Part shown: positions 33,464 to 41,668 of the stretch, in pieces | Position numbering within the stretch: the stretch's first letter is position 1 | Layout of the letters: the number at the start of each line of letters is the position of its first letter | Assembly (NCBI GenBank): GCA_902787665.1 | Contig: CADAHF010000001.1 | Span: 2,757 to 66,756, forward strand | DNA from: an uncultured Pseudomonadota bacterium | GTDB taxonomy: Bacteria > Pseudomonadota > Alphaproteobacteria > Rs-D84 | Direction of reading: 5' to 3' | DNA length: 64,000 bases | Position numbers and translations under genes: made by a program | The notes under the pieces: model-generated | Told to the model about the DNA's origin: nothing | Databases searched by the model: none | Seen by the model: only the letters and a program-made list of their open reading frames with translations

Positions 33464-34069
33464 ATGCAAAATAAAGCAAAGAAAGTAAATGTTGTTGTGT
33501 TTGATTTTGATGGGACTTTGTCGGCGTATGATGCAAATGTTGAATTTGGAAAATACTGTTTGCGTCATTCGTTGCGGACTTGGGCTTTTTTGCCGGTAAT
33601 TTTAGTTGCGTATATTGGGCGGCTGATAAATCATCCGGGAATTTGGTGGCGGCAAACTATGCGTCGGTTTTTAACGGCGGGCATGCGTGACAAATTCGCA
33701 CGCGATTTTATAAGACAGCATAAATTAAATCGATTTGGTTGGGCATCAGAACGCGTCGCGGCGGAACGCGCAGCGGGCAACATTGTTGTTTTGATTTCTG
33801 CATCCCCAGATTATTTGTTGCGGCCATTGGTGCGCGATATAAAATTTGATGCGGTTATGTGTTCGGAAATGGATAAAGATTATCCATGGAAATATAAATT
33901 TTTATGTTGGGGCAAAAACAAGGTTGCCGCATTAAATGCCTGGGCGGAAAAAAAGAAAATTACACCACACATTGTGCGTTCTTATTCCGACAGCAAATCA
34001 GATATGCCAATAATGAAATTGGCAGATGAGGCGGTTTGGATAAATCGTAAAACAGGTTGCAGAAAATAA
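33464..34069 (+). CDS. HAD-superfamily subfamily IB hydrolase
   Basis: Motif I VVFDFDGTL. RBS AAGGAA. Alpha/beta HAD core with cap insertion. Confidence 0.65.
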   Translation: MQNKAKKVNVVVFDFDGTLSAYDANVEFGKYCLRHSLRTWAFLPVILVAYIGRLINHPGIWWRQTMRRFLTAGMRDKFARDFIRQHKLNRFGWASERVAAERAAGNIVVLISASPDYLLRPLVRDIKFDAVMCSEMDKDYPWKYKFLCWGKNKVAALNAWAEKKKITPHIVRSYSDSKSDMPIMKLADEAVWINRKTGCRK

Positions 34070-34074
34070 AACAC

Positions 34075-34158
34075 TGGATTGCTTCGCAGGCTCGCAATGA
34101 CAAAACAACAGGCAAGCTCCATTGTCATTGCGAAGCCGTCAGGCGACGTGGCAATCCA
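34075..34158. repeat. nested imperfect palindrome (outer 8-bp stem TGGATTGC/GCAATCCA, inner 11-bp stem CGCAATGACAA/TTGTCATTGCG)
   Basis: Read directly from the sequence. It sits between the convergent HAD and rmuC genes. Confidence 0.6.
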
Positions 34159-34172
34159 AAAATTGTATCAAT

Positions 34173-34232
34173 AAAAACACCGGCATCCGTCTTCGCTTCG
34201 CTACGTCGAGACAGGTTTGCTGGTGTTTTTTT
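34173..34232. repeat. ~60-nt palindromic repeat (CACCGGCA-[45 nt]-TGCTGGTG + T-run); second copy, inverted, at 41667-41726
   Basis: Its core is ~90% identical to the reverse complement of the element after pyk. Flanked by A-run and T-run, so it can act as a bidirectional terminator. Confidence 0.6.
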
Positions 34233-34238
34233 GCCTTT

Positions 34239-35108
34239 TTATTCCCCAAAATCAAGTTCGCGGATTTTTTCGGCACGTGGGGTAATTTTATCAATAGATG
34301 TTTGTAATTCGCCGATATCTTTCTGGGCCAATGCAAAATGTTGATCAATTGCACCCGCACGTTTAGACAGACGATCCAAATCGGCCAGCAATAATTCCAA
34401 TTCTTTTTTGATTTTACCCGCAACGCGTTTAATCTTGATGTCCGACAATATTGCACGAATTGTGTTTAATGTCGCCCACAGTGTTGATGGTGACACAATG
34501 AACACTTTGCGCCGTGCGGCATAGTCAATCGCACCTGGAAAATCGCGATGCAGCGATTCAAATATAGATTCTGATGCAATAAACATCATTGCAGATTCAG
34601 CGGTAGTCCCTGGGATAATATATTTTTCGGCAATCGCGTCAATGTGTTTGCGGACGTCCAGCTCAAACTGCTTTTTTGCGCCTTCTTCGCCATTCGCCAA
34701 CCGATTATACGATTCCAGTGGAAATTTGCTGTCAATTACCATGTCGCCCGGGGGATATGGCAGGCGAATAATACAATCTGGACGCACACCGGTTGGTAAA
34801 ACATGCTGAAAATCATAGGTTTCTGGTGGCATTATGTCGGTCACGATGTCGGTTAATTGCCGTTCGCCAAATGTTCCGCGTGCCTGTTTGTTGCCCATAA
34901 GGATATTCTTGAAATTCGCGATGTCTGCACTGATATTCTTTAATTCAATCGCGTTTTGCGACAGCGCGCCCAGGCGTTCCGCCAGGCGTTCACGAAGTCT
35001 TGCGTTATCTTCTTTTAAAGCCGAAATATCAACGGTTGGACGGCGAAAAAACTGCACAATTGTCATAACCGCGATGAAAATTAATAAAATTAAAATATAA
35101 GTTGTCAT
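34239..35108 (-). CDS. rmuC: DNA recombination protein RmuC
   Basis: N-terminal TM, a long coiled-coil, then the RmuC C-terminal nuclease-like region. RBS AAGGAATA before the ATG at 35108. Confidence 0.75.
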   Translation of the reverse strand: MTTYILILLIFIAVMTIVQFFRRPTVDISALKEDNARLRERLAERLGALSQNAIELKNISADIANFKNILMGNKQARGTFGERQLTDIVTDIMPPETYDFQHVLPTGVRPDCIIRLPYPPGDMVIDSKFPLESYNRLANGEEGAKKQFELDVRKHIDAIAEKYIIPGTTAESAMMFIASESIFESLHRDFPGAIDYAARRKVFIVSPSTLWATLNTIRAILSDIKIKRVAGKIKKELELLLADLDRLSKRAGAIDQHFALAQKDIGELQTSIDKITPRAEKIRELDFGE

Positions 35109-35150
35109 TTGGTATTCCTTTGCTATCATTCATTATAAGAGGTTTTGTAA

Positions 35151-35657
35151 ATGTTGCAAATGAAACTTTGTGGCGATTTGGTCTTGCGCGAAAAGTGCGA
35201 CGCGGTGGGTGAAATTACCCCCGATATTTTGCATGCAATGGATGAAATGGTGCAAATGATGCATGAACAAAATGGCGTTGGCCTGGCTGCGCCCCAGGTG
35301 AACATTACAAAACGATTCTTGGTTATGATGAATCCGGATACGAACGAAGTGTTCAAAATGATTAACCCAAAAATCGTTCGTAAAAGTGTCGAGACGGTTA
35401 AAATGGAAGAAGGGTGCCTGTCGGTTTTGGGATCGGACGGGTTGCCGGTCTTTTCAGATGTGGTGCGTCCAGAAAATGTTGATGTGGAATGGACGGACGA
35501 AAACGGAAAAAGTTTGGCTGCACACATGTCGGGCCTGCCGGCGCGTATCGTGCAACATGAAACAGACCATTTGGACGGAGTTCTGTTTATTGATTATCTG
35601 TCGCCGGTGCATCGCGAAATGGTTATGCGCAAGGTGCGTAAATACAAAAAAGCATAA
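35151..35657 (+). CDS. def: peptide deformylase
   Basis: Motifs GVGLAAPQ, EGCLS and HETDHLDG. Confidence 0.9.
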   Translation: MLQMKLCGDLVLREKCDAVGEITPDILHAMDEMVQMMHEQNGVGLAAPQVNITKRFLVMMNPDTNEVFKMINPKIVRKSVETVKMEEGCLSVLGSDGLPVFSDVVRPENVDVEWTDENGKSLAAHMSGLPARIVQHETDHLDGVLFIDYLSPVHREMVMRKVRKYKKA

Positions 35658-35658
35658 A

Positions 35659-36465
35659 ATGAAATTAGTTTTAATGGGAACAAATGATTTTGTTGTCCCA
35701 ATCTTTAACGCGATTAAAAAAGCCGGACATGAAATTGTCGCGGTTTTTACGCGCGCACCAAAGCCGGTTGGTCGTAAACATATTTTAACAAAATCGCCGG
35801 TGCATACATGGGCGGAAACAAATGGGCTGACCGTTCATACAAACATCAAAGAATATAAATACACACCTGATATGGTTGTGGTTGTGTCATACGGTGTGAT
35901 TTTGGGAGATGATGTATTAAATTCTGCACCTGTTATCAATATTCACCCAAGTGATTTACCACGTTATCGCGGGCCGTCACCAATCAGAACAGCAATTTTT
36001 AATGGCGACAAACAAAGTGCCGTTTGTTTGATGAAAATTGTTCCGGAATTAGACACGGGCGATATCCTTATGCGTGTGCCGTTCGATATATGTGAAAATG
36101 ATACCAATGATACGATTGAAAAACGTGTGTCAGAAGTTGGTTCTGATATGATTGTTGAATACCTGAATGCGCCAGAAAAATATGTGCCAGTTGCACAAAG
36201 TGGTAATGCAACATATACAAAGAAATTCATTGGTGACGATGAAATTATTGATTGGAATAAATCTAGACAATCAATTCATAACCAAATTCGTGCGCTGGGC
36301 TGTGGCCGGACAAAGATAAATGGCATAGATGTGAAAATTTTGGAAACACGTATTGAAAACGGCGAATTAAAAATAATCACAATTCAACCAGCAGGTAAAA
36401 AACCGATGAATTGGAAAAGCTTTATAAATGGCTTGCGCGGAGCAGAGATTGTATTTGGAAAATAA
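35659..36465 (+). CDS. fmt: methionyl-tRNA formyltransferase
   Basis: N-terminal Rossmann-like formyltransferase (MKLVLMGTNDF…IHPSDLPRYRGPSPI…). The ATG at 35659 directly follows the def stop. Confidence 0.85.
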   Translation: MKLVLMGTNDFVVPIFNAIKKAGHEIVAVFTRAPKPVGRKHILTKSPVHTWAETNGLTVHTNIKEYKYTPDMVVVVSYGVILGDDVLNSAPVINIHPSDLPRYRGPSPIRTAIFNGDKQSAVCLMKIVPELDTGDILMRVPFDICENDTNDTIEKRVSEVGSDMIVEYLNAPEKYVPVAQSGNATYTKKFIGDDEIIDWNKSRQSIHNQIRALGCGRTKINGIDVKILETRIENGELKIITIQPAGKKPMNWKSFINGLRGAEIVFGK

Positions 36466-36480
36466 AGTTAAGGAAAACAA

Positions 36481-36690
36481 ATGGCCGAAGATAACAGTAA
36501 AAAATATTGTGGTTTGTTTGATTGCCATGTTGTGCAATCTGAACATAATAAAAACGGAACGTGTAAATGCTTAACGTGTATGGGGTTGCGTTGTGAAAAC
36601 TGTCAGCAATATAAAGATTTGCGGGACGAAGCAGACAAAAACGATTGGGTAAAACTAGAACGTTGTATAAGCTGCAAAAAACAAAGATGA
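36481..36690 (+). CDS. small cysteine-rich protein (8-9 Cys), paralog A
   Basis: 69 aa. RBS AAGGAAA. Shares with paralog B the pattern C-x4-C-x12-CKCLxC-…-C-x2-C-…-RCIxCxKQ and the SEHNxNG motif. Confidence 0.5.
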   Translation: MAEDNSKKYCGLFDCHVVQSEHNKNGTCKCLTCMGLRCENCQQYKDLRDEADKNDWVKLERCISCKKQR

Positions 36691-36715
36691 CACGGAAAAT
36701 GATAAAGGAATAACA

Positions 36716-36964
36716 ATGGCAGAAAACAAAGCACCAACATGGCTTGATACACATCCTTTTTGTGCATTTATGAGCTGTAATGTACTTGTTTCTGAACATA
36801 ATAACAATGGTGAATGTAAGTGTTTGTCATGTCATCCAGGAACCGGGTACTGTAATAATGGTTGTTCATGGTATGAAAGTTTGATGCAAGAACGTTGGAA
36901 CGAAGAAACAAGTTTTGATAATCGGTGTATAAGGTGTATGAAACAACAAGAAAAACAAAAATGA
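36716..36964 (+). CDS. small cysteine-rich protein, paralog B
   Basis: 82 aa. RBS AAAGGAA. Same Cys framework as paralog A. Its stop overlaps the truA start (ATGA). Confidence 0.5.
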   Translation: MAENKAPTWLDTHPFCAFMSCNVLVSEHNNNGECKCLSCHPGTGYCNNGCSWYESLMQERWNEETSFDNRCIRCMKQQEKQK

Positions 36965-37719
36965 CCCGTTATAAAGTAAATCTTGAATATGATGGAACCG
37001 ATTTAATCGGGTGGCAAGAAAATGCCCAGGGGCCATCTGTACAATCAATTTTGTCGGATGCGATTTTTTCTTTCTGTGGTACGCGTCCCGATGTCGTTGG
37101 CGCGGGTCGCACAGATGCTGGTGTGCATGCGTTAAATATGGTCGCACATTTTGATTTGGATAAAGACGTGGATTCCGAAACAGTTATGCGGGCATTGAAT
37201 TTTTATTTGGTTAATAAACCTGTTGCAGTATTAAATTGCGAAATTGTTGCGGACGATTTTAATGCGCGTTTTGATTGTGTAAGACGCAATTATAAATATG
37301 TCGTATTAAATCGTGGACCGCAACCAGTGTTAAATAAAAATCGTGTTTGGTGGGTGCCGCGCAAATTAAATATAACTGCGATGAAACGCGCAGCTTCAAG
37401 GTTGGTTGGCAAGCATGATTTTACAAGTTTTCGTGCCGCCGAATGTCAGGCAAAGTCACCGATTAAAACGCTTGATTCGGCAACCGTTATAAAACAAGGC
37501 GATGAAATTATTTTCGAATTTTCAGCGCGGTCTTTTTTGCATCACCAGGTTCGTAATATGGTTGGAACATTGGTTGAAATTGGCGCTGGTAAACCATACG
37601 ATATTGATGAGATTTTTGCGGCAAAAAATCGCAGCGCTGCGGGTCCAAATGCACCGGCGTCAGGCCTGTATTTCGTTAGTGCTGAATATTCCAACGGCGG
37701 TTGTAATTCTGATAAATAA
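36961..37719 (+). CDS. truA: tRNA pseudouridine(38-40) synthase
   Basis: …LEYDGTDLIGWQ…GAGRTDAGVHA… includes the catalytic Asp motif. Confidence 0.9.
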   Translation: MTRYKVNLEYDGTDLIGWQENAQGPSVQSILSDAIFSFCGTRPDVVGAGRTDAGVHALNMVAHFDLDKDVDSETVMRALNFYLVNKPVAVLNCEIVADDFNARFDCVRRNYKYVVLNRGPQPVLNKNRVWWVPRKLNITAMKRAASRLVGKHDFTSFRAAECQAKSPIKTLDSATVIKQGDEIIFEFSARSFLHHQVRNMVGTLVEIGAGKPYDIDEIFAAKNRSAAGPNAPASGLYFVSAEYSNGGCNSDK

Positions 37720-39601
37720 TTTTGCCGTTTTCATAAATTATAAATCCATCGCGTAAAATTTTAGATTCACAATTCGGCGCAGTGATATCAAAATACGAAA
37801 CAATATAATCAACCGTTTCATCATTACACAGTTTCGTTATGTTGTTTTGCAGTGCAGAAAATTTCTGCATATATGCGATTTTGATTTTTGGTGATTGAAA
37901 TATATACAATCCTTTTTTATGCTTCGCACGTGTGTTTGGTGTATCTGTTTTTATATGTGCAAAATGTTTCCATGTGTCAAAAGTGAAATAATGATTTGAT
38001 GCGCGCGATTTATTAAATGTAATTTCATTATCATTTACAAACGCGACAAGTTCATGATCGCTTGTTGCCATAAACAACGGTTTTGGTGTGGCTACAATTG
38101 TGATAATGCCAAATAGTATAAATATTGCCCCAAGTATGTAATTCATTTTTATCTTTAACGGGCGAATTAAAACAACGCACATCATGCCAAGAATAATCAA
38201 ACATAGTGCCATATTAGATATATATGGTGTTTGTATTGTGGCATGTGGTAATTCAGCAATAAATTTTGCAACAGACAAAGTAAAGTTATATGCAACATCT
38301 GCAATATGTAATGGAAACGCAAAACCACAAATGGCTGCAAATATGCCAATAATAACAAGTGGCATAATTATAACTGAAAACAGGGGCAGTAAAATTAAGT
38401 TTCCGATAATGCTGTAGATTGGCACCGAATAAAAATGCACGGCGATGAATGGCGCAGTAAAGATTGACGCAACAATCGCAGTTAAAACAGCAGTTGTTAG
38501 ATAACGCGGAATTTTGTTTTCTGGCAGTTTTGGATTAACACAATTCCAAAACCAGACAAGACCAAATATAGCCGAAAAAGATAACTGAAAACCCGCTGTC
38601 ATAATATAATATGGGTTAATCAAAAACAGAATGCAAAATGCCAGACATACATTACGTAATGAAAACGCCCCGCGCCCCAATAATGCTGCCAAACAAATAA
38701 GTGTTGCCATTAAAAATGCGCGCAGTGTTGCAACCGATGCACCAGATATCAGTACATAAGAAATAAGGACGCCCCACGCGCAACACATGGCGATGTGTTT
38801 TGCAGGTATGCGTTTAACAATCGGTGGTATTAAACGAAACAGAAAATAAAATATCGCGAACAACCAACCCATAATAAGCGTCATGTGGAAACCACTGATT
38901 GACCAAACATGCCCAACACCCGTCGATGTCCAGATTTCGCGTTCAGCTGCGGGCAGGGTGTGTTTATATCCCAATATCAAACTGTCCACCAGAGGTGCAT
39001 TTGTGTGGTTGTGTATCCATGAACGTAAGTTATTCGGTGCGCGTTCCGTTATTGTAATATCATCGGCATATCCAGTTGATGTCAGCTTGTTGAAATACGA
39101 CCAACGTGCAAAATCAAAGCCACCGGGTGCGTCCGCCGGGCTGGGGGTGAACAATGTCGCGGTTGTTTCAACTTCATCGTTTATATTTATTTGATTTGCT
39201 GTATCCACAGATATACGCACCACTGCATGACGACTTGAATCAATGTTTAATTCATTTGCGGGAACACTAATATAAATACGTGTCTTGTCGGCGGTATAAT
39301 CAATATCACTAACGCGTCCAGCAATTTCAACATCGCGCAAGTTTTTCTTTAATATTGGTGTATCTATCGTATTGGTGTACGCACACGCGTAAACAAAACC
39401 AAAAAGAAAAATTAAAATTGCGCGAATAATAATTGGTGCGCGCCAAAGACACATTGTCCCAAACAAAATTGCTGATATTAAAAACGCAAATGGAATATGT
39501 GGCTCAAACCCAATTGAAAAATATAGTGCACCACCCGCCGCCATTATAAACGGGACCCATAAAAACAGATTATCTTTTTGCACTTTCCAGATTTCTTGCA
39601 T
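37676..39601 (-). CDS. comEC: ComEC/Rec2-family DNA internalisation channel protein (short form)
   Basis: DUF4131-like N-terminus and a polytopic competence domain. 641 aa. Its 3' end overlaps the truA 3' end by 44 nt (convergent). Confidence 0.7.
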   Translation of the reverse strand: MQEIWKVQKDNLFLWVPFIMAAGGALYFSIGFEPHIPFAFLISAILFGTMCLWRAPIIIRAILIFLFGFVYACAYTNTIDTPILKKNLRDVEIAGRVSDIDYTADKTRIYISVPANELNIDSSRHAVVRISVDTANQININDEVETTATLFTPSPADAPGGFDFARWSYFNKLTSTGYADDITITERAPNNLRSWIHNHTNAPLVDSLILGYKHTLPAAEREIWTSTGVGHVWSISGFHMTLIMGWLFAIFYFLFRLIPPIVKRIPAKHIAMCCAWGVLISYVLISGASVATLRAFLMATLICLAALLGRGAFSLRNVCLAFCILFLINPYYIMTAGFQLSFSAIFGLVWFWNCVNPKLPENKIPRYLTTAVLTAIVASIFTAPFIAVHFYSVPIYSIIGNLILLPLFSVIIMPLVIIGIFAAICGFAFPLHIADVAYNFTLSVAKFIAELPHATIQTPYISNMALCLIILGMMCVVLIRPLKIKMNYILGAIFILFGIITIVATPKPLFMATSDHELVAFVNDNEITFNKSRASNHYFTFDTWKHFAHIKTDTPNTRAKHKKGLYIFQSPKIKIAYMQKFSALQNNITKLCNDETVDYIVSYFDITAPNCESKILRDGFIIYENGKIIYQNYNRRWNIQH

Positions 39602-39645
39602 ATATAAAGTATAGGAATTTATACGGAATTACTGCAACGATATTT

Positions 39646-39960
39646 TTATTTGCCGAATATAAAAGAATTATCGGCAGAAAGAGAAATAATTGCGTCAATA
39701 TCGTCTTCTGGGGCGGCATGTTGACGAATGGTTTTACCACATTTTTCACATTTATGGGTGATTATGAACCCTTCGCCAGATTTTTCAGCGGCAATCGGTG
39801 CCATCATTCCGCCACAAGTCGCGGCGCGGTCGCCCGGGGTATTATCCACATGGCGTGAATACAAACATTTCGGGCAATGGTTTGTATATCCATTGCCCGA
39901 AACAGTCGCGCCACAATGTGCGCATGTAAAATCTTCAACAGTTTTTGTGAATCGTTTCAT
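39646..39960 (-). CDS. RNHCP-domain zinc-ribbon protein
   Basis: …TNHCPKCLYSRHVD… signature plus extra CxxC pairs. Confidence 0.55.
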   Translation of the reverse strand: MKRFTKTVEDFTCAHCGATVSGNGYTNHCPKCLYSRHVDNTPGDRAATCGGMMAPIAAEKSGEGFIITHKCEKCGKTIRQHAAPEDDIDAIISLSADNSFIFGK

Positions 39961-40208
39961 TACAGACCCAACGCATTACGATACATTTGGGTTAATTCGT
40001 CTGTTTCCATCAATTCGTCTGGATCCAGTTTACGCAAACGTATCATCTGGCGAATATATTTTGGGTCAAAACCAGCCGATTTTGCTTCACTATACACTTC
40101 TTTGATATCAGCGGCGATTGCAGCGGTTTCTTCATTTAATTTTTCAATTCTTTCAATAATGCTTGTTAATTGTTGGTTATCAATTGCACCGTGGTTTGCG
40201 TTTTTCAT
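39960..40208 (-). CDS. GapR-like DUF2312/UPF0335 nucleoid-associated protein
   Basis: 82 aa. …LTSIIERIEKLNEETAAIAADIKEVYSEAKSAGFDPKYIRQMIRLRKLD… matches the conserved alphaproteobacterial DUF2312. RBS AAGGGGA. Confidence 0.65.
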   Translation of the reverse strand: MKNANHGAIDNQQLTSIIERIEKLNEETAAIAADIKEVYSEAKSAGFDPKYIRQMIRLRKLDPDELMETDELTQMYRNALGL

Positions 40209-40297
40209 ATATTTTTCCCCTTGTTATGTGTTTTGATATGATATATCATAAATTGAAAAAATCAAGACAAACAAAATTGTAATGTGTGGGGAGGGGT

Positions 40298-41668
40298 ATG
40301 TACAATTTTACCAAAATTACCGCATCAATCGGCCCGAAAAGCAGTGACCGCAAAACCATATATGATATGGTTGTGGCGGGCGCTGATGTGTTTCGCATAA
40401 ATTTCAGTCATGATACGGGGCGTGTGCAGGGGGCTAAGATTGATTTAATTCGTGATGTTGCCACAGAATTGGGCAAGCCGATTGGTATAATTGTTGATCT
40501 GCAGGGGCCCAAACACCGTATTGGTGATTTTGAAACAGATGAAAAATATCCATTAAAAGTCGGACAAAAATTTACATTTGATGATGTTGATAAACCTGGA
40601 AATTCCAAACGCGTTTATTTGCCAGATAACGATGTCCTGAAATCATTGCATGTGGGTGATCGTATTTTACTGAATGATGGAAAAATTGAAATGACGGTGG
40701 AATCGGTGGCGGCGCACAAAGTGGTTGCGACGGTTGTTCGTGGTGATCAAATTTGGTCGCGGCGTGGGTTTAACCTGCCGGATACAGATGTTGCAACGCC
40801 AATACTGACCCCAAAAGATCGCGATGATTTGGAATATGCAATTACGAAAAAGCCAGATTATGTCGCAATATCTTTTGTGCAACGTGCGTCTGATATTGCG
40901 GTTGTGCGTGAATTTATTGCAAGTCGCACAACACACCCAATCAAAATAATTGCAAAAATTGAACGGCCAAATGCGGTGGAAAGAATTGATGAAATTGTGT
41001 CTGCGGCGGACGGTATTATGATTGCGCGTGGCGATTTAGCGGTTGAGGTTCCGTTTGAGGAAGTGCCGGCAATTTCGCGCAAGATTATTCGTGTTTGTCG
41101 CACTATGAATAAACCAGTAATTATGGCAACGCAAATGATGGCAACGATGGTGGATGCGGAATTTCCAACCCGTGCCGAGATTTCTGATGTGGCAAATGCG
41201 GCATATCTGCGTGCCGATTCCACAATGACAAGCGAAGAAACAACCATTGGTGTGAATCCAGTCAATGTTATTGATAAAATGGCGCGCATTTTGTCGTATT
41301 CTGATTCTGATACAATCGCGAACCCATACGATTGGTCGCGCGTTGATAACACACCACAAAATGATTGGTCGCGTTCGGTATCAAGCATGGCATACCTGAA
41401 CCACGCGGTTGCGATAATTGTGTTTGCACGTGATGCCGAAAGTGCAATTCAGATTTCGTGTCGCAAACCAGATATTCCAATTATCGCCGTATGTAATGAT
41501 GTCGTGGTCGCAAATCAGTTGTGTTTGTGCCGTGGTATATCAAGTATATATGATGAACAGTTGTATGGTATGCGTGATGGCTTTAATTCTGCCCGCCGTT
41601 TTGGCATTCACACCGGCAAATTAGTAATCGTAGACGAAGATAAAATAAGTTTAAGAACACTTGATTAA
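40298..41668 (+). CDS. pyk: pyruvate kinase
   Basis: …KITASIGP…FRINFSHD…VDLQGPKHRIG…MIARGDLAVE…MATQMM… are canonical PK motifs. Confidence 0.9.
   Translation: MYNFTKITASIGPKSSDRKTIYDMVVAGADVFRINFSHDTGRVQGAKIDLIRDVATELGKPIGIIVDLQGPKHRIGDFETDEKYPLKVGQKFTFDDVDKPGNSKRVYLPDNDVLKSLHVGDRILLNDGKIEMTVESVAAHKVVATVVRGDQIWSRRGFNLPDTDVATPILTPKDRDDLEYAITKKPDYVAISFVQRASDIAVVREFIASRTTHPIKIIAKIERPNAVERIDEIVSAADGIMIARGDLAVEVPFEEVPAISRKIIRVCRTMNKPVIMATQMMATMVDAEFPTRAEISDVANAAYLRADSTMTSEETTIGVNPVNVIDKMARILSYSDSDTIANPYDWSRVDNTPQNDWSRSVSSMAYLNHAVAIIVFARDAESAIQISCRKPDIPIIAVCNDVVVANQLCLCRGISSIYDEQLYGMRDGFNSARRFGIHTGKLVIVDEDKISLRTLD

What the first reader, a model, noticed from the sequence alone, without database searches (positions are those of the whole stretch)
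36481..36964. Tandem pair of small cysteine-rich paralogous proteins inserted between fmt and truA
Two adjacent ORFs of 69 and 82 aa each have a strong RBS (AAGGAAA and AAAGGAA). The second is translationally coupled to truA by an ATGA overlap. They share the N-terminus MAE(D/N)N and a conserved framework: C-x4-C-x5-VSEHNxNG(T/E)CKCL(T/S)C-…-C-x2-C-…-W-…-RCI(S/R)C(K/M)KQ. About 8 Cys are conserved. There is no signal peptide. The pattern suggests a small metal-binding domain that I do not recognise, perhaps zinc-ribbon or treble-clef-like. Small 8-Cys proteins duplicated in tandem inside the conserved def-fmt-truA block are unusual. They may be a lineage-specific factor linked to translation or tRNA.
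Basis: seen in the sequence. Interest (0 to 1): 0.6.

Follow-up and report, generated by a model that had tools for sequence, protein, structure and literature searches.

The report
Orphan eight-cysteine mini-proteins coupled to truA
Two real, selected genes for small eight-cysteine (probably two-zinc) proteins sit between fmt and truA; they belong to an undescribed family found only in reduced-genome gut Alphaproteobacteria, where one copy always lies directly upstream of the tRNA pseudouridine synthase gene truA, hinting at a small partner subunit of unknown function.

Summary
ORFs of 69 aa (36481-36690) and 82 aa (36716-36964) are paralogs (37% identity, E 1e-12). Each has an RBS, and the second overlaps truA by ATGA. 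Both are under purifying selection (dN/dS 0.09-0.27, like def, fmt and truA).

They belong to an undescribed family. Pfam, NCBIfam, PHROGs, PADLOC and PDB give no hit. A profile search of 1.84 billion representative proteins found only 29 clusters. All members with known hosts come from gut alphaproteobacterial MAGs (Ca. Enterousia and relatives; Enterousia is order Rs-D84, genomes mostly under 1 Mb).

Eight Cys plus one Ser and one Asn are invariant. The ninth Cys is not.

In all 50 related loci that include downstream DNA, a family member sits directly upstream of truA, usually with stop/start overlap. The tandem pair is a local duplication, and a vestigial truA start follows the first copy. 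Relatives carry one to three copies, and often two other optional Cys-rich families, one of which is sometimes fused to this one.

AlphaFold confidence was modest (pLDDT 65) and no known fold matched.

Best reading: a cytoplasmic Cys8 two-zinc mini-domain co-expressed with TruA, possibly a small accessory subunit in the manner of Nop10 or Trm112. Metal binding and the partner are inferred, not shown.

The parts
35102..35129 (+). Candidate sigma-70-like promoter upstream of def (TTGTCA-16-TATCAT with a TG extension). It could start a def-fmt-A69-B82-truA transcript.
   Evidence: Consensus scan. The number of sites is not above shuffled expectation, so this is weak. No terminator-like site lies on the + strand between fmt and the end of truA; the one + strand site (35207-35220) is a weak 5-pair stem inside def.
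35151..35657 (+). def (peptide deformylase), first gene of the block.
   Evidence: ORF. Orthologs carry PF01327 in related loci.
35659..36465 (+). fmt (methionyl-tRNA formyltransferase, 268 aa). Its C-terminal domain is shorter than in solved Fmt structures.
   Evidence: The N-domain aligns as 2-214 to 6-232 of 4iqf. The C-domain is only partly matched.
36470..36476 (+). RBS-like AAGGAAA for A69.
   Evidence: Read.
36481..36690 (+). A69: a 69-aa Cys-rich protein of the Fam1 family, the family-typical short form. Invariant Cys are at 10, 28, 30, 33, 38, 41, 62 and 65.
   Evidence: dN/dS is 0.09-0.15. Orthologs are 93-96% identical in P0008, L007 and L046.
36687..36713 (+). Vestigial copy of the ATGA junction and the first codons of truA (ATG ACA CGG = MTR..., 8-codon ORF MTRKMIKE*). 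This is a scar of the tandem duplication.
   Evidence: Direct repeat D2, 36677-36694 vs 36951-36968, 89% identity. Sequence read.
36704..36710 (+). RBS-like AAAGGAA for B82.
   Evidence: Read.
36716..36964 (+). B82: an 82-aa Fam1 paralog. It has a longer N-terminus and wider spacing in the central Cys cluster (C-x6-C-x3-C). Invariant Cys are at 16, 34, 36, 39, 46, 50, 71 and 74. It is translationally coupled to truA.
   Evidence: dN/dS is 0.20-0.27.
36961..37719 (+). truA (tRNA pseudouridine synthase A, 252 aa). It is full length with the catalytic GRTDAGVHA motif. Its start overlaps the B82 stop (ATGA).
   Evidence: E 8e-45 to E. coli TruA 1dj0, residues 5-244 aligned to 7-247.

Best explanation
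A69 and B82 are two paralogs of an undescribed family, called Fam1 here. Members are cytoplasmic mini-proteins of about 65-85 aa. All members with known hosts come from gut alphaproteobacterial MAGs with small genomes (Ca. Enterousia and relatives; Enterousia is order Rs-D84).

The invariant signature is C-x(11-17)-S-x2-N-x2-G-x-C-x-C-x2-C-x(3-6)-C-x(2,3)-C-x(9-30)-C-x2-C. Its eight Cys include three CxxC-type knuckles. It most likely folds around two tetrahedral Cys4 metal sites, probably Zn2+, in a compact and possibly cross-braced arrangement. The helical linker between the last two knuckles varies in length.

The gene is embedded in the def-fmt-truA operon. One copy is always the gene immediately upstream of truA, usually with overlapping stop and start codons. 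The protein is therefore made from the same mRNA as TruA and is likely coupled to it translationally.

The mechanism I consider most likely is a small structural zinc-binding partner or accessory subunit of TruA, or less likely of Fmt. Nop10 plays this role for the pseudouridine synthase Cbf5, and Trm112 plays it for tRNA/rRNA methyltransferases.

The pair in this window arose by a tandem duplication that included the truA start.

Shown: gene reality, selection, family limits, invariant residues, strict synteny and coupling, and the duplication scar.
Inferred: metal binding, fold topology, and the TruA/tRNA connection.
For: Reality and selection:
- The paralogs match at E 1e-12.
- dN/dS is 0.09-0.27, similar to def, fmt and truA.
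- Rfam finds no RNA family in the region.

Narrow orphan family:
- No hit passes threshold in Pfam, NCBIfam, PHROGs or PADLOC.
- A PDB sequence-profile search gave a best E of 5.
- Word-index searches found only 10 close homologs.
- The exhaustive profile search of 1.84e9 representatives found 29 clusters.
- A motif scan of viral contigs found none.

Host:
- The hits are gut alphaproteobacterial MAGs, including Ca. Enterousia.
- Enterousia belongs to order Rs-D84, whose genomes are reduced, mostly under 1 Mb, and lack the TCA cycle and respiration (PMC12306168).

Invariant residues:
- Eight Cys plus S and N are invariant, and V and G are conserved in at least 90% of 43 sequences down to 24% identity.

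Synteny:
- Fam1 is the last gene before truA in all 28 loci. The stop/start overlap is -4 or -1 nt in 20 of 28, and the gap is at most 19 nt in all but one.
- The same context holds for P0018, P0023, P0033, P0035 and P0040.
- It also holds for 21 independent metagenome loci wherever flank exists.
- Single-copy loci show fmt-Fam1-truA with overlaps on both sides (L027 and L028).

Duplication scar: direct repeat D2.

Structure and weak similarities:
- The AF2 model of A69 shows a beta-hairpin plus short helices that start at or just after the CxxC knuckles.
- Recurrent sub-threshold similarities are all to two-zinc cross-brace modules: ANCHR-like B-box in 4 of 43 members, FYVE in 2 of 43, and the PDB FYVE domain 6w9n.

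TruA is full length with its catalytic motif, so it is an intact candidate partner.
Against: - There is no direct evidence for metal binding or for any interaction.
- AF2 confidence is low to moderate (pLDDT 49 and 65). Foldseek found no fold match in PDB or BFVD, so the topology is unverified.
- Operon adjacency in a small, syntenic, vertically inherited genome can persist without a functional link.
- Rs-D84 TruA shows no obvious missing element that a partner would need to supply.
- Bacterial TruA is known to work alone as a homodimer (established knowledge).
- Both proteins are near-neutral or acidic, which argues against direct RNA binding.
- The same gap holds two other optional Cys-rich families, and Fam2 is fused to Fam1 in some genomes. 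Fam1 may therefore act in a Cys-rich protein module rather than with TruA.
- Fe(Cys)4 or Fe-S chemistry cannot be excluded in an anaerobe.
Confidence: 0.4

Rival explanations
1. Redox or iron protein. The eight Cys hold Fe(Cys)4 (rubredoxin-like) centres or an Fe-S cluster, or act as a zinc-thiolate oxidation switch. Together with the optional Cys-rich Fam2 and Fam3 proteins they would form a small electron-transfer or redox-sensing module. That module would merely reside in, or would tune, the def-fmt-truA operon of an anaerobe.
For: - The hosts are fermentative gut bacteria without respiration.
- Three different Cys-rich families cluster in the same gap, and Fam2 is fused to Fam1 in P0023, P0033 and L021.
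- Fam3 gave a very weak HiPIP-like hit, E 4.4.
- CxxC knuckles bind Fe as well as Zn (established knowledge).
Against: - There is no ferredoxin or HiPIP signature and no CP motif.
- No Pfam Fe-S family hit is anywhere near threshold.
- Fam2 and Fam3 are absent from this window and from many relatives, whereas Fam1 is universal.
- No redox enzymes are nearby.
Confidence: 0.2
2. A structural Cys8 zinc mini-protein whose function is unrelated to TruA or Fmt, for example a regulator, a chaperone-like factor or a metal buffer. It would sit in the fmt-truA gap only because that is a permissive, well-expressed slot where small genes are gained, duplicated and lost.
For: - The gap is highly plastic. 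It holds one to three Fam1 copies plus optional Fam2 and Fam3, fusions, and degenerate fragments such as the 41-aa ORF in L022.
- The tandem duplication scar lies here.
- Gene order around the gap is frozen across the clade (rmuC-def-fmt...truA-comEC). Adjacency alone is therefore weak evidence of a functional link.
Against: - Fam1 specifically is never found elsewhere. It is always the gene touching truA, while the other families always lie upstream of it.
- Stop/start overlaps are maintained across lineages whose Fam1 identity is only 24-40%.
- A metallothionein-like buffer would not need an invariant Ser, Asn and Gly, and would be richer in Cys. Here Cys is 11-13% of residues.
Confidence: 0.3
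3. Ribosomally synthesised peptide precursors (RiPP or bacteriocin-like Cys-rich peptides), or secreted effectors aimed at a host or a neighbouring cell.
For: - The products are small and Cys-rich, duplicated in tandem and variable in copy number.
- The host lineage has a reduced genome and is probably dependent on partners.
- The weak similarities are to eukaryote-type zinc fingers, FYVE and B-box.
Against: - No radical-SAM enzyme, cyclase, protease or ABC exporter lies in the neighbourhood.
- There is no signal peptide.
- Conservation spans the whole length, with invariant non-Cys residues, rather than following a leader/core pattern.
- The gene is embedded in a housekeeping operon and translationally coupled to it.
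- PADLOC and PHROGs give no hits, and viral contigs contain no copies.
Confidence: 0.05
4. Not functional proteins. They would be chance ORFs, or Cys-codon-rich leader ORFs that only regulate truA translation.
For: They are short, are annotated at most as 'hypothetical protein' in public sources, and are tightly coupled to truA.
Against: - dN/dS is 0.09-0.27.
- Ten residues are invariant across 43 sequences with mean column identity of only 29%.
- Each ORF has its own RBS.
- The family is retained in every examined genome of a lineage with genomes mostly under 1 Mb.
Confidence: 0.03

Closest known systems
Nop10, the small zinc-ribbon subunit of the archaeal/eukaryotic H/ACA pseudouridine synthase Cbf5/dyskerin
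   Same: It is a Cys-containing mini-protein of about 55-65 aa. In archaea it binds Zn and serves as an obligatory small partner of a pseudouridine synthase (established knowledge). Fam1 is of similar size, is Cys-based, and is always co-encoded and translationally coupled with a pseudouridine synthase, TruA.
   Different: There is no sequence similarity, since no Pfam hit was found. Nop10 has one Cys4 site and Fam1 has eight invariant Cys. TruA belongs to a different pseudouridine synthase family from Cbf5/TruB and has no known partner. The interaction is untested here.
Trm112, a small zinc-knuckle activator of tRNA/rRNA/release-factor methyltransferases, and its bacterial YcaR/DUF343 relatives
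   Same: It is a small zinc-binding protein with one Cys4 site. Its role is to bind and stabilise RNA-modification enzymes (established knowledge). This is the functional logic proposed here.
   Different: There is no detectable homology. Its Cys pattern and partner enzymes are different.
Cross-braced two-zinc modules: FYVE, ANCHR-like B-box, RING/PHD
   Same: They use eight ligands for two Zn. The central spacing C-x2-C-x4-C-x2-C...C-x2-C of Fam1 aligns with the FYVE core (PDB 6w9n alignment). The recurrent weak Pfam hits are to the ANCHR-like B-box and FYVE.
   Different: All scores are far below the gathering thresholds, at most about 16 bits against 27. The FYVE signature motifs WxxD, R(R/K)HHCR and RVC are absent. 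Foldseek found no structural match. Fam1 has its own invariant S-x2-N-x2-G-x-C-x-C motif. These modules are eukaryotic, whereas Fam1 is confined to one bacterial clade.
DnaJ cysteine-rich domain (four CxxCxGxG repeats binding two Zn)
   Same: It has two Cys4 zinc centres built from CxxC knuckles. The Fam1 knuckle C-L-x-C-x-G resembles CxxCxG (read; DnaJ motif from established knowledge).
   Different: Only one of the three Fam1 knuckles has the Gly. Fam1 has no repeat structure and no Pfam DnaJ_CXXCXGXG hit.

Membership tests
FYVE zinc finger (PF01363) | Pfam score above the gathering threshold. | tested here: not met
   Only 2 of 43 members gave a hit, best E 0.077. Neither window protein gave one.
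FYVE zinc finger (PF01363) | Signature motifs WxxD, R(R/K)HHCR and RVC around eight Zn-binding Cys. | tested here: not met
   Eight Cys are present, but none of the three motifs appears in alignment A2. The PDB FYVE match has E 5.3.
B-box / ANCHR-like B-box (PF22586) | Pfam score above the gathering threshold (27 bits). | tested here: not met
   A69 scores 7.7 bits, E 5.2. The best family member reaches E 0.013, in 4 of 43 members.
Nop10 / zinc-ribbon partner of a pseudouridine synthase | Sequence homology to the Nop10 family. | tested here: not met
   No Pfam or NCBIfam hit up to E 10.
Nop10 / zinc-ribbon partner of a pseudouridine synthase | Physical complex with the synthase. | not testable with these tools
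   The only evidence is co-encoding and stop/start overlap with truA in all 50 loci that include downstream DNA.
Trm112 (PF03966) | Sequence homology to Trm112, with a single Cys4 zinc knuckle. | tested here: not met
   No Pfam hit. Fam1 has eight invariant Cys.
HNH / beta-beta-alpha-Me nuclease with flanking zinc knuckles | An invariant catalytic His and a metal-binding His or Asn on the helix. | tested here: not met
   No His is invariant. The H of SEHN is Y, L, D or others in some members, and H16 of A69 is N, R, T or others. The BFVD HNH matches have E above 5.
RiPP precursor (for example SCIFF/ranthipeptide, sactipeptide) | An adjacent maturation enzyme (radical SAM or similar) and/or exporter, plus a leader/core architecture. 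| tested here: not met
   The neighbours are rmuC, def, fmt, truA, comEC, RNHCP, gapR and pyk. Conservation spans the whole protein. NCBIfam gives no hit.
Ferredoxin / HiPIP / rubredoxin | Family Cys motif (CxxCxxCxxxCP, the HiPIP pattern, or a rubredoxin CxxCG pair) with a Pfam hit. | tested here: not met
   No such hits for Fam1. A HiPIP hit of E 4.4 concerns Fam3 only.
Metallothionein | Very high Cys content (about 30%), few conserved non-Cys residues, and no regular secondary structure. | tested here: not met
   Cys is 9 of 69 and 9 of 82 residues (11-13%). S, N, G and V are invariant or nearly so. The model predicts helices and a hairpin.
Two-metal Cys8 binding (general property, not a family) | Eight conserved ligands with knuckle spacing, and stoichiometric metal in the protein. 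| tested here: inconclusive
   Eight invariant Cys, including three CxxC-type knuckles, are shown. Metal content cannot be tested with these tools.

The most novel reading that the evidence does not exclude
Fam1 is a new two-zinc fold that acts as an obligatory small subunit of bacterial TruA. It would be the first accessory protein known for a stand-alone bacterial pseudouridine synthase, a convergent analogue of Nop10-Cbf5. It would have evolved in one reduced-genome gut alphaproteobacterial lineage. The optional Fam2 and Fam3 Cys-rich proteins, sometimes fused to Fam1, might link tRNA modification or initiator-tRNA formylation to metal or redox status.
Probability: 0.15. Interest if true: 0.7.

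Novelty: new variant of a known kind. Interest (0 to 1): 0.45.

Why it matters
Lineages with genomes mostly under 1 Mb shed non-essential genes. This clade has nonetheless kept, duplicated and fused a private eight-cysteine mini-protein. It has also kept that protein welded to the start of truA across lineages whose copies share only about 25% identity. That argues for a real, selected function, and one that no database describes.

If the protein partners TruA or Fmt, bacterial tRNA-modification or initiation enzymes could acquire small zinc-binding subunits as archaeal and eukaryotic ones did. If it does not, it is still a probable new metal-binding mini-fold.

The neighbouring slot is also a clear example of a 'nursery' where small Cys-rich genes are born, duplicated and fused.

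The practical value is modest. The organisms are uncultured and the claim is testable only by heterologous expression.

Tried and rejected
- Family libraries. Pfam, NCBIfam, PHROGs and PADLOC gave nothing above threshold for either protein. Pfam gave nothing for all 43 family members or for Fam2 and Fam3.
- PDB sequence-profile search. Only noise was returned, best E 5.3.
- AF2 on B82 with 12 sequences. pLDDT was 49, which is unusable.
- HNH-like reading of 'SEHN'. Rejected because no His is invariant.
- Homology among Fam1, Fam2 and Fam3. hhalign probabilities were at most 1.1%, so they were treated as separate families.
- Extra copies of Fam1, Fam2 or Fam3 elsewhere in the 64-kb window. None were found; the best other hit had E 0.028.
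- RNA element in the region. Rfam found nothing with E up to 1.
- Phage origin. A motif scan of viral contigs found nothing.
- The search for related loci with the broad alignment A2. It failed because the alignment was too diverse. It was replaced by a degenerate DNA motif scan.
- Literature. Papers on Enterousia and Rs-D84 describe genome reduction only and say nothing about these proteins.

Full report
**1. The observation**

The two ORFs exist exactly as described. A69 spans 36481-36690 and B82 spans 36716-36964, both on the + strand.

- fmt ends at 36465.
- AAGGAAA (36470-36476) precedes the first ATG at a Shine-Dalgarno distance. AAAGGAA (36704-36710) does the same for the second.
- The B82 stop codon overlaps the truA start as ATGA (36961-36964). 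TruA homology starts at that ATG.
- BLASTP of one protein against the other gives 37% identity over 68 residues, E 1e-12.
- Each protein has nine Cys.
- The N-termini are charged and have no hydrophobic core, so no signal peptide is present (read from the sequence).

**2. The genes are real**

I compared them with orthologs in related contigs by the Nei-Gojobori method.

| Gene | dN/dS |
|---|---|
| A69 | 0.09-0.15 |
| B82 | 0.20-0.27 |
| def, fmt, truA (same pairs) | 0.07-0.18 |

Rfam finds no RNA family in 34000-40500. The consensus scan finds no terminator-like site on the + strand between fmt and the end of truA. The single + strand site (35207-35220) is a weak 5-pair stem inside def. A promoter-like site lies upstream of def (weak evidence). 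The simplest reading is one def-fmt-A69-B82-truA transcript.

**3. The family**

No library recognises either protein.

- Pfam: best hit is the ANCHR-like B-box at 7.7 bits, against a cut-off of 27.
- NCBIfam, PHROGs and PADLOC: nothing.
- PDB sequence-profile search: only noise.

The family is very small.

- The word-index search of 5.8 billion proteins returned 7 and 3 close homologs.
- A profile search that reads every one of 1.84 billion representatives returned 29 clusters with E up to 1e-3.

A 43-sequence alignment, with pairwise identities to B82 as low as 24%, has ten invariant columns. In B82 numbering they are C16, S26, N29, C34, C36, C39, C46, C50, C71 and C74. V23 and G32 are conserved in at least 90% of sequences.

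So eight Cys are invariant.

The signature is C-x(11-17)-S-x2-N-x2-G-x-C-x-C-x2-C-x(3-6)-C-x(2,3)-C-x(9-30)-C-x2-C. The linker before the last knuckle varies from 9 residues (the L021 fusion) to about 30 (P0011).

**4. The host**

Genome hits are gut MAGs labelled Candidatus Enterousia, Alphaproteobacteria UBA2947, or 'uncultured Rickettsiales/Alphaproteobacteria'.

Enterousia belongs to the uncultured order Rs-D84. Its members have reduced genomes, mostly under 1 Mb, and lack the TCA cycle and respiratory chains (PMC12306168). The literature says nothing about these proteins.

**5. Context is the strongest result**

I collected 53 related loci from four sources:

- exact-protein look-ups;
- a GTDB genome scan;
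- a degenerate motif scan of JGI metagenomes;
- the same scan on viral contigs, which found nothing.

In every locus that includes downstream DNA (50 of 53), a Fam1 gene is the gene immediately upstream of truA. The other three contigs end at or near Fam1.

In the 28 loci measured, the Fam1 stop and the truA ATG overlap by 4 nt or 1 nt in 20. They lie at most 19 nt apart in all others but one. In single-copy genomes the gene overlaps fmt on one side and truA on the other (L027 and L028).

The flanking order rmuC / def-fmt-...-truA / comEC is conserved throughout.

**6. The gap is a variable slot**

Between fmt and the truA-proximal Fam1 gene, relatives carry zero to three further small Cys-rich genes:

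- extra Fam1 copies, up to three in total (L011, L038, L052);
- 'Fam2', 65-79 aa, with C-x2-C...C...(D/G)TC-x2-F;
- 'Fam3', 91-133 aa, with (C)C-x2-C...CC...C-x(1,2)-C.

hhalign finds no relationship among the three families.

Fam2 is fused in frame to Fam1 in P0023, P0033 and L021. P0035 is a Fam1-Fam1 fusion. The fusions argue that Fam2 and Fam1 act together where both exist.

This window has no Fam2 or Fam3 anywhere in its 64 kb.

**7. Origin of the pair**

An 18-nt direct repeat (36677-36694 vs 36951-36968, 89% identity) shows that the end of A69 carries a second copy of the ATGA junction. It is followed by ATG ACA CGG (MTR), compared with the real truA start ATG ACC CGT (MTR). This leaves an 8-codon vestige at 36687-36713.

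The pair therefore arose by a tandem duplication of the Fam1 gene together with the first codons of truA.

A69 is the family-typical form, 62% identical to the single-type copy of UBA2947. B82-type proteins occur only in close relatives and evolve faster.

**8. Structure**

- AF2 on B82 with 12 sequences failed (pLDDT 49).
- AF2 on A69 with 23 diverse sequences gave pLDDT 65 and pTM 0.47. It predicts a beta-hairpin (7-10, 15-18) and helices at 21-26, 35-38, 42-53 and 60-67. Helices start at or just after the knuckles, as in zinc-knuckle or treble-clef elements.
- Foldseek against PDB and BFVD gave nothing with E below 1.
- The only recurrent, sub-threshold sequence similarities are to two-zinc cross-brace modules: ANCHR-like B-box in 4 of 43 members, FYVE in 2 of 43, and PDB 6w9n.

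Eight invariant Cys including three CxxC-type knuckles fit two Cys4 sites. This is inference. Fe cannot be excluded.

**9. Mechanism**

I commit to the following reading. Fam1 is a cytoplasmic two-metal (probably Zn) mini-domain, made in step with TruA from the same mRNA, that acts as a small protein-binding accessory factor. TruA is the most likely partner.

- Fam1, and not Fam2 or Fam3, always abuts truA.
- The proteins are neutral to acidic, which argues against direct RNA binding.
- The functional analogues are Nop10 with Cbf5 and Trm112 with methyltransferases (established knowledge). There is no homology to either.

Against this reading, TruA here is full length with an intact catalytic motif and no visible deficit. 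Frozen synteny in a small genome can also keep unrelated genes together.

The Fmt of this clade does have a shortened C-terminal (tRNA-binding) domain. That keeps Fmt alive as an alternative partner.

My confidence by level:

| Claim | Confidence |
|---|---|
| Real, selected, clade-restricted family | about 0.95 |
| Two-metal Cys8 domain | about 0.65 |
| Partner of TruA or a tRNA enzyme | about 0.3 |

**10. Rivals**

The rivals are an Fe/redox module with Fam2 and Fam3, an unrelated zinc protein in a permissive slot, a RiPP or effector, and a non-functional or leader ORF. They are weighed in the rival section. The last two are poorly supported.

**11. Novelty and verdict**

This is an undescribed, clade-restricted family of small Cys8 proteins with an unusually strict genomic coupling to truA. 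The kind of object, a small Cys-rich metal-binding protein in a housekeeping operon, is familiar. The family, its signature and its context are new, and the fold may be new too.

Interest is moderate. It would surprise a tRNA-modification specialist only if the TruA partnership were confirmed.

Noticed in passing
L002 1704-2647; L010 5454-5975; L018 5781-5984; L053 2837-3379 (no counterpart in the window): Two further families of small Cys-rich proteins occupy the fmt-truA gap in relatives. They are Fam2 (65-79 aa, C-x2-C...C...(D/G)TC-x2-F) and Fam3 (91-133 aa, (C)C-x2-C...CC...C-x(1,2)-C). Both are unknown to Pfam. Fam2 is fused to Fam1 in P0023, P0033 and L021 5631-5984.
   Followed up: partly
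window 36687-36713: An 8-codon vestigial ORF (MTRKMIKE*) begins with a copy of the ATGA junction and the first three codons of truA. It is a scar of the tandem duplication that produced the A69/B82 pair.
   Followed up: yes
window 35659-36465 (fmt): Fmt is only 268 aa. Residues 215-268 stand in for roughly 85 residues of the C-terminal tRNA-binding domain of solved Fmt proteins (314-322 aa). All relatives share this length, and Pfam Formyl_trans_C is only 'faint' in them.
   Followed up: partly
window 36716-36964 vs L007 2514-2765: The synonymous divergence of B82 from its closest ortholog (dS 0.68) is about three times that of its neighbours (def 0.16, A69 0.20, truA 0.24, fmt 0.27). This could reflect recombination or gene conversion among paralogs. 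P0010 also looks like a B82-type N-terminus joined to an A69-type C-terminus.
   Followed up: no
window 37676-37719: The 3' ends of truA (+) and the comEC-like gene (-, 37676-39601) overlap convergently by 44 nt. The same overlap is seen in relatives, for example L001 6084-6127.
   Followed up: no
window 39646-39960 (-) and 39960-40208 (-): A 104-aa RNHCP-domain protein, another Cys-rich protein of unknown function, overlaps by 1 nt the upstream GapR/DUF2312-type gene. This pair is conserved in most related loci.
   Followed up: no
window 36250-37000: GC content dips to 35-36% over the two small genes, compared with 40-44% in def, fmt and truA.
   Followed up: no
L022 5518-5643 and L023 502-627: A 41-aa truncated Fam1-like ORF lies upstream of the intact copy. 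It looks like a decaying duplicate, which suggests ongoing birth and death of copies in this slot.
   Followed up: no
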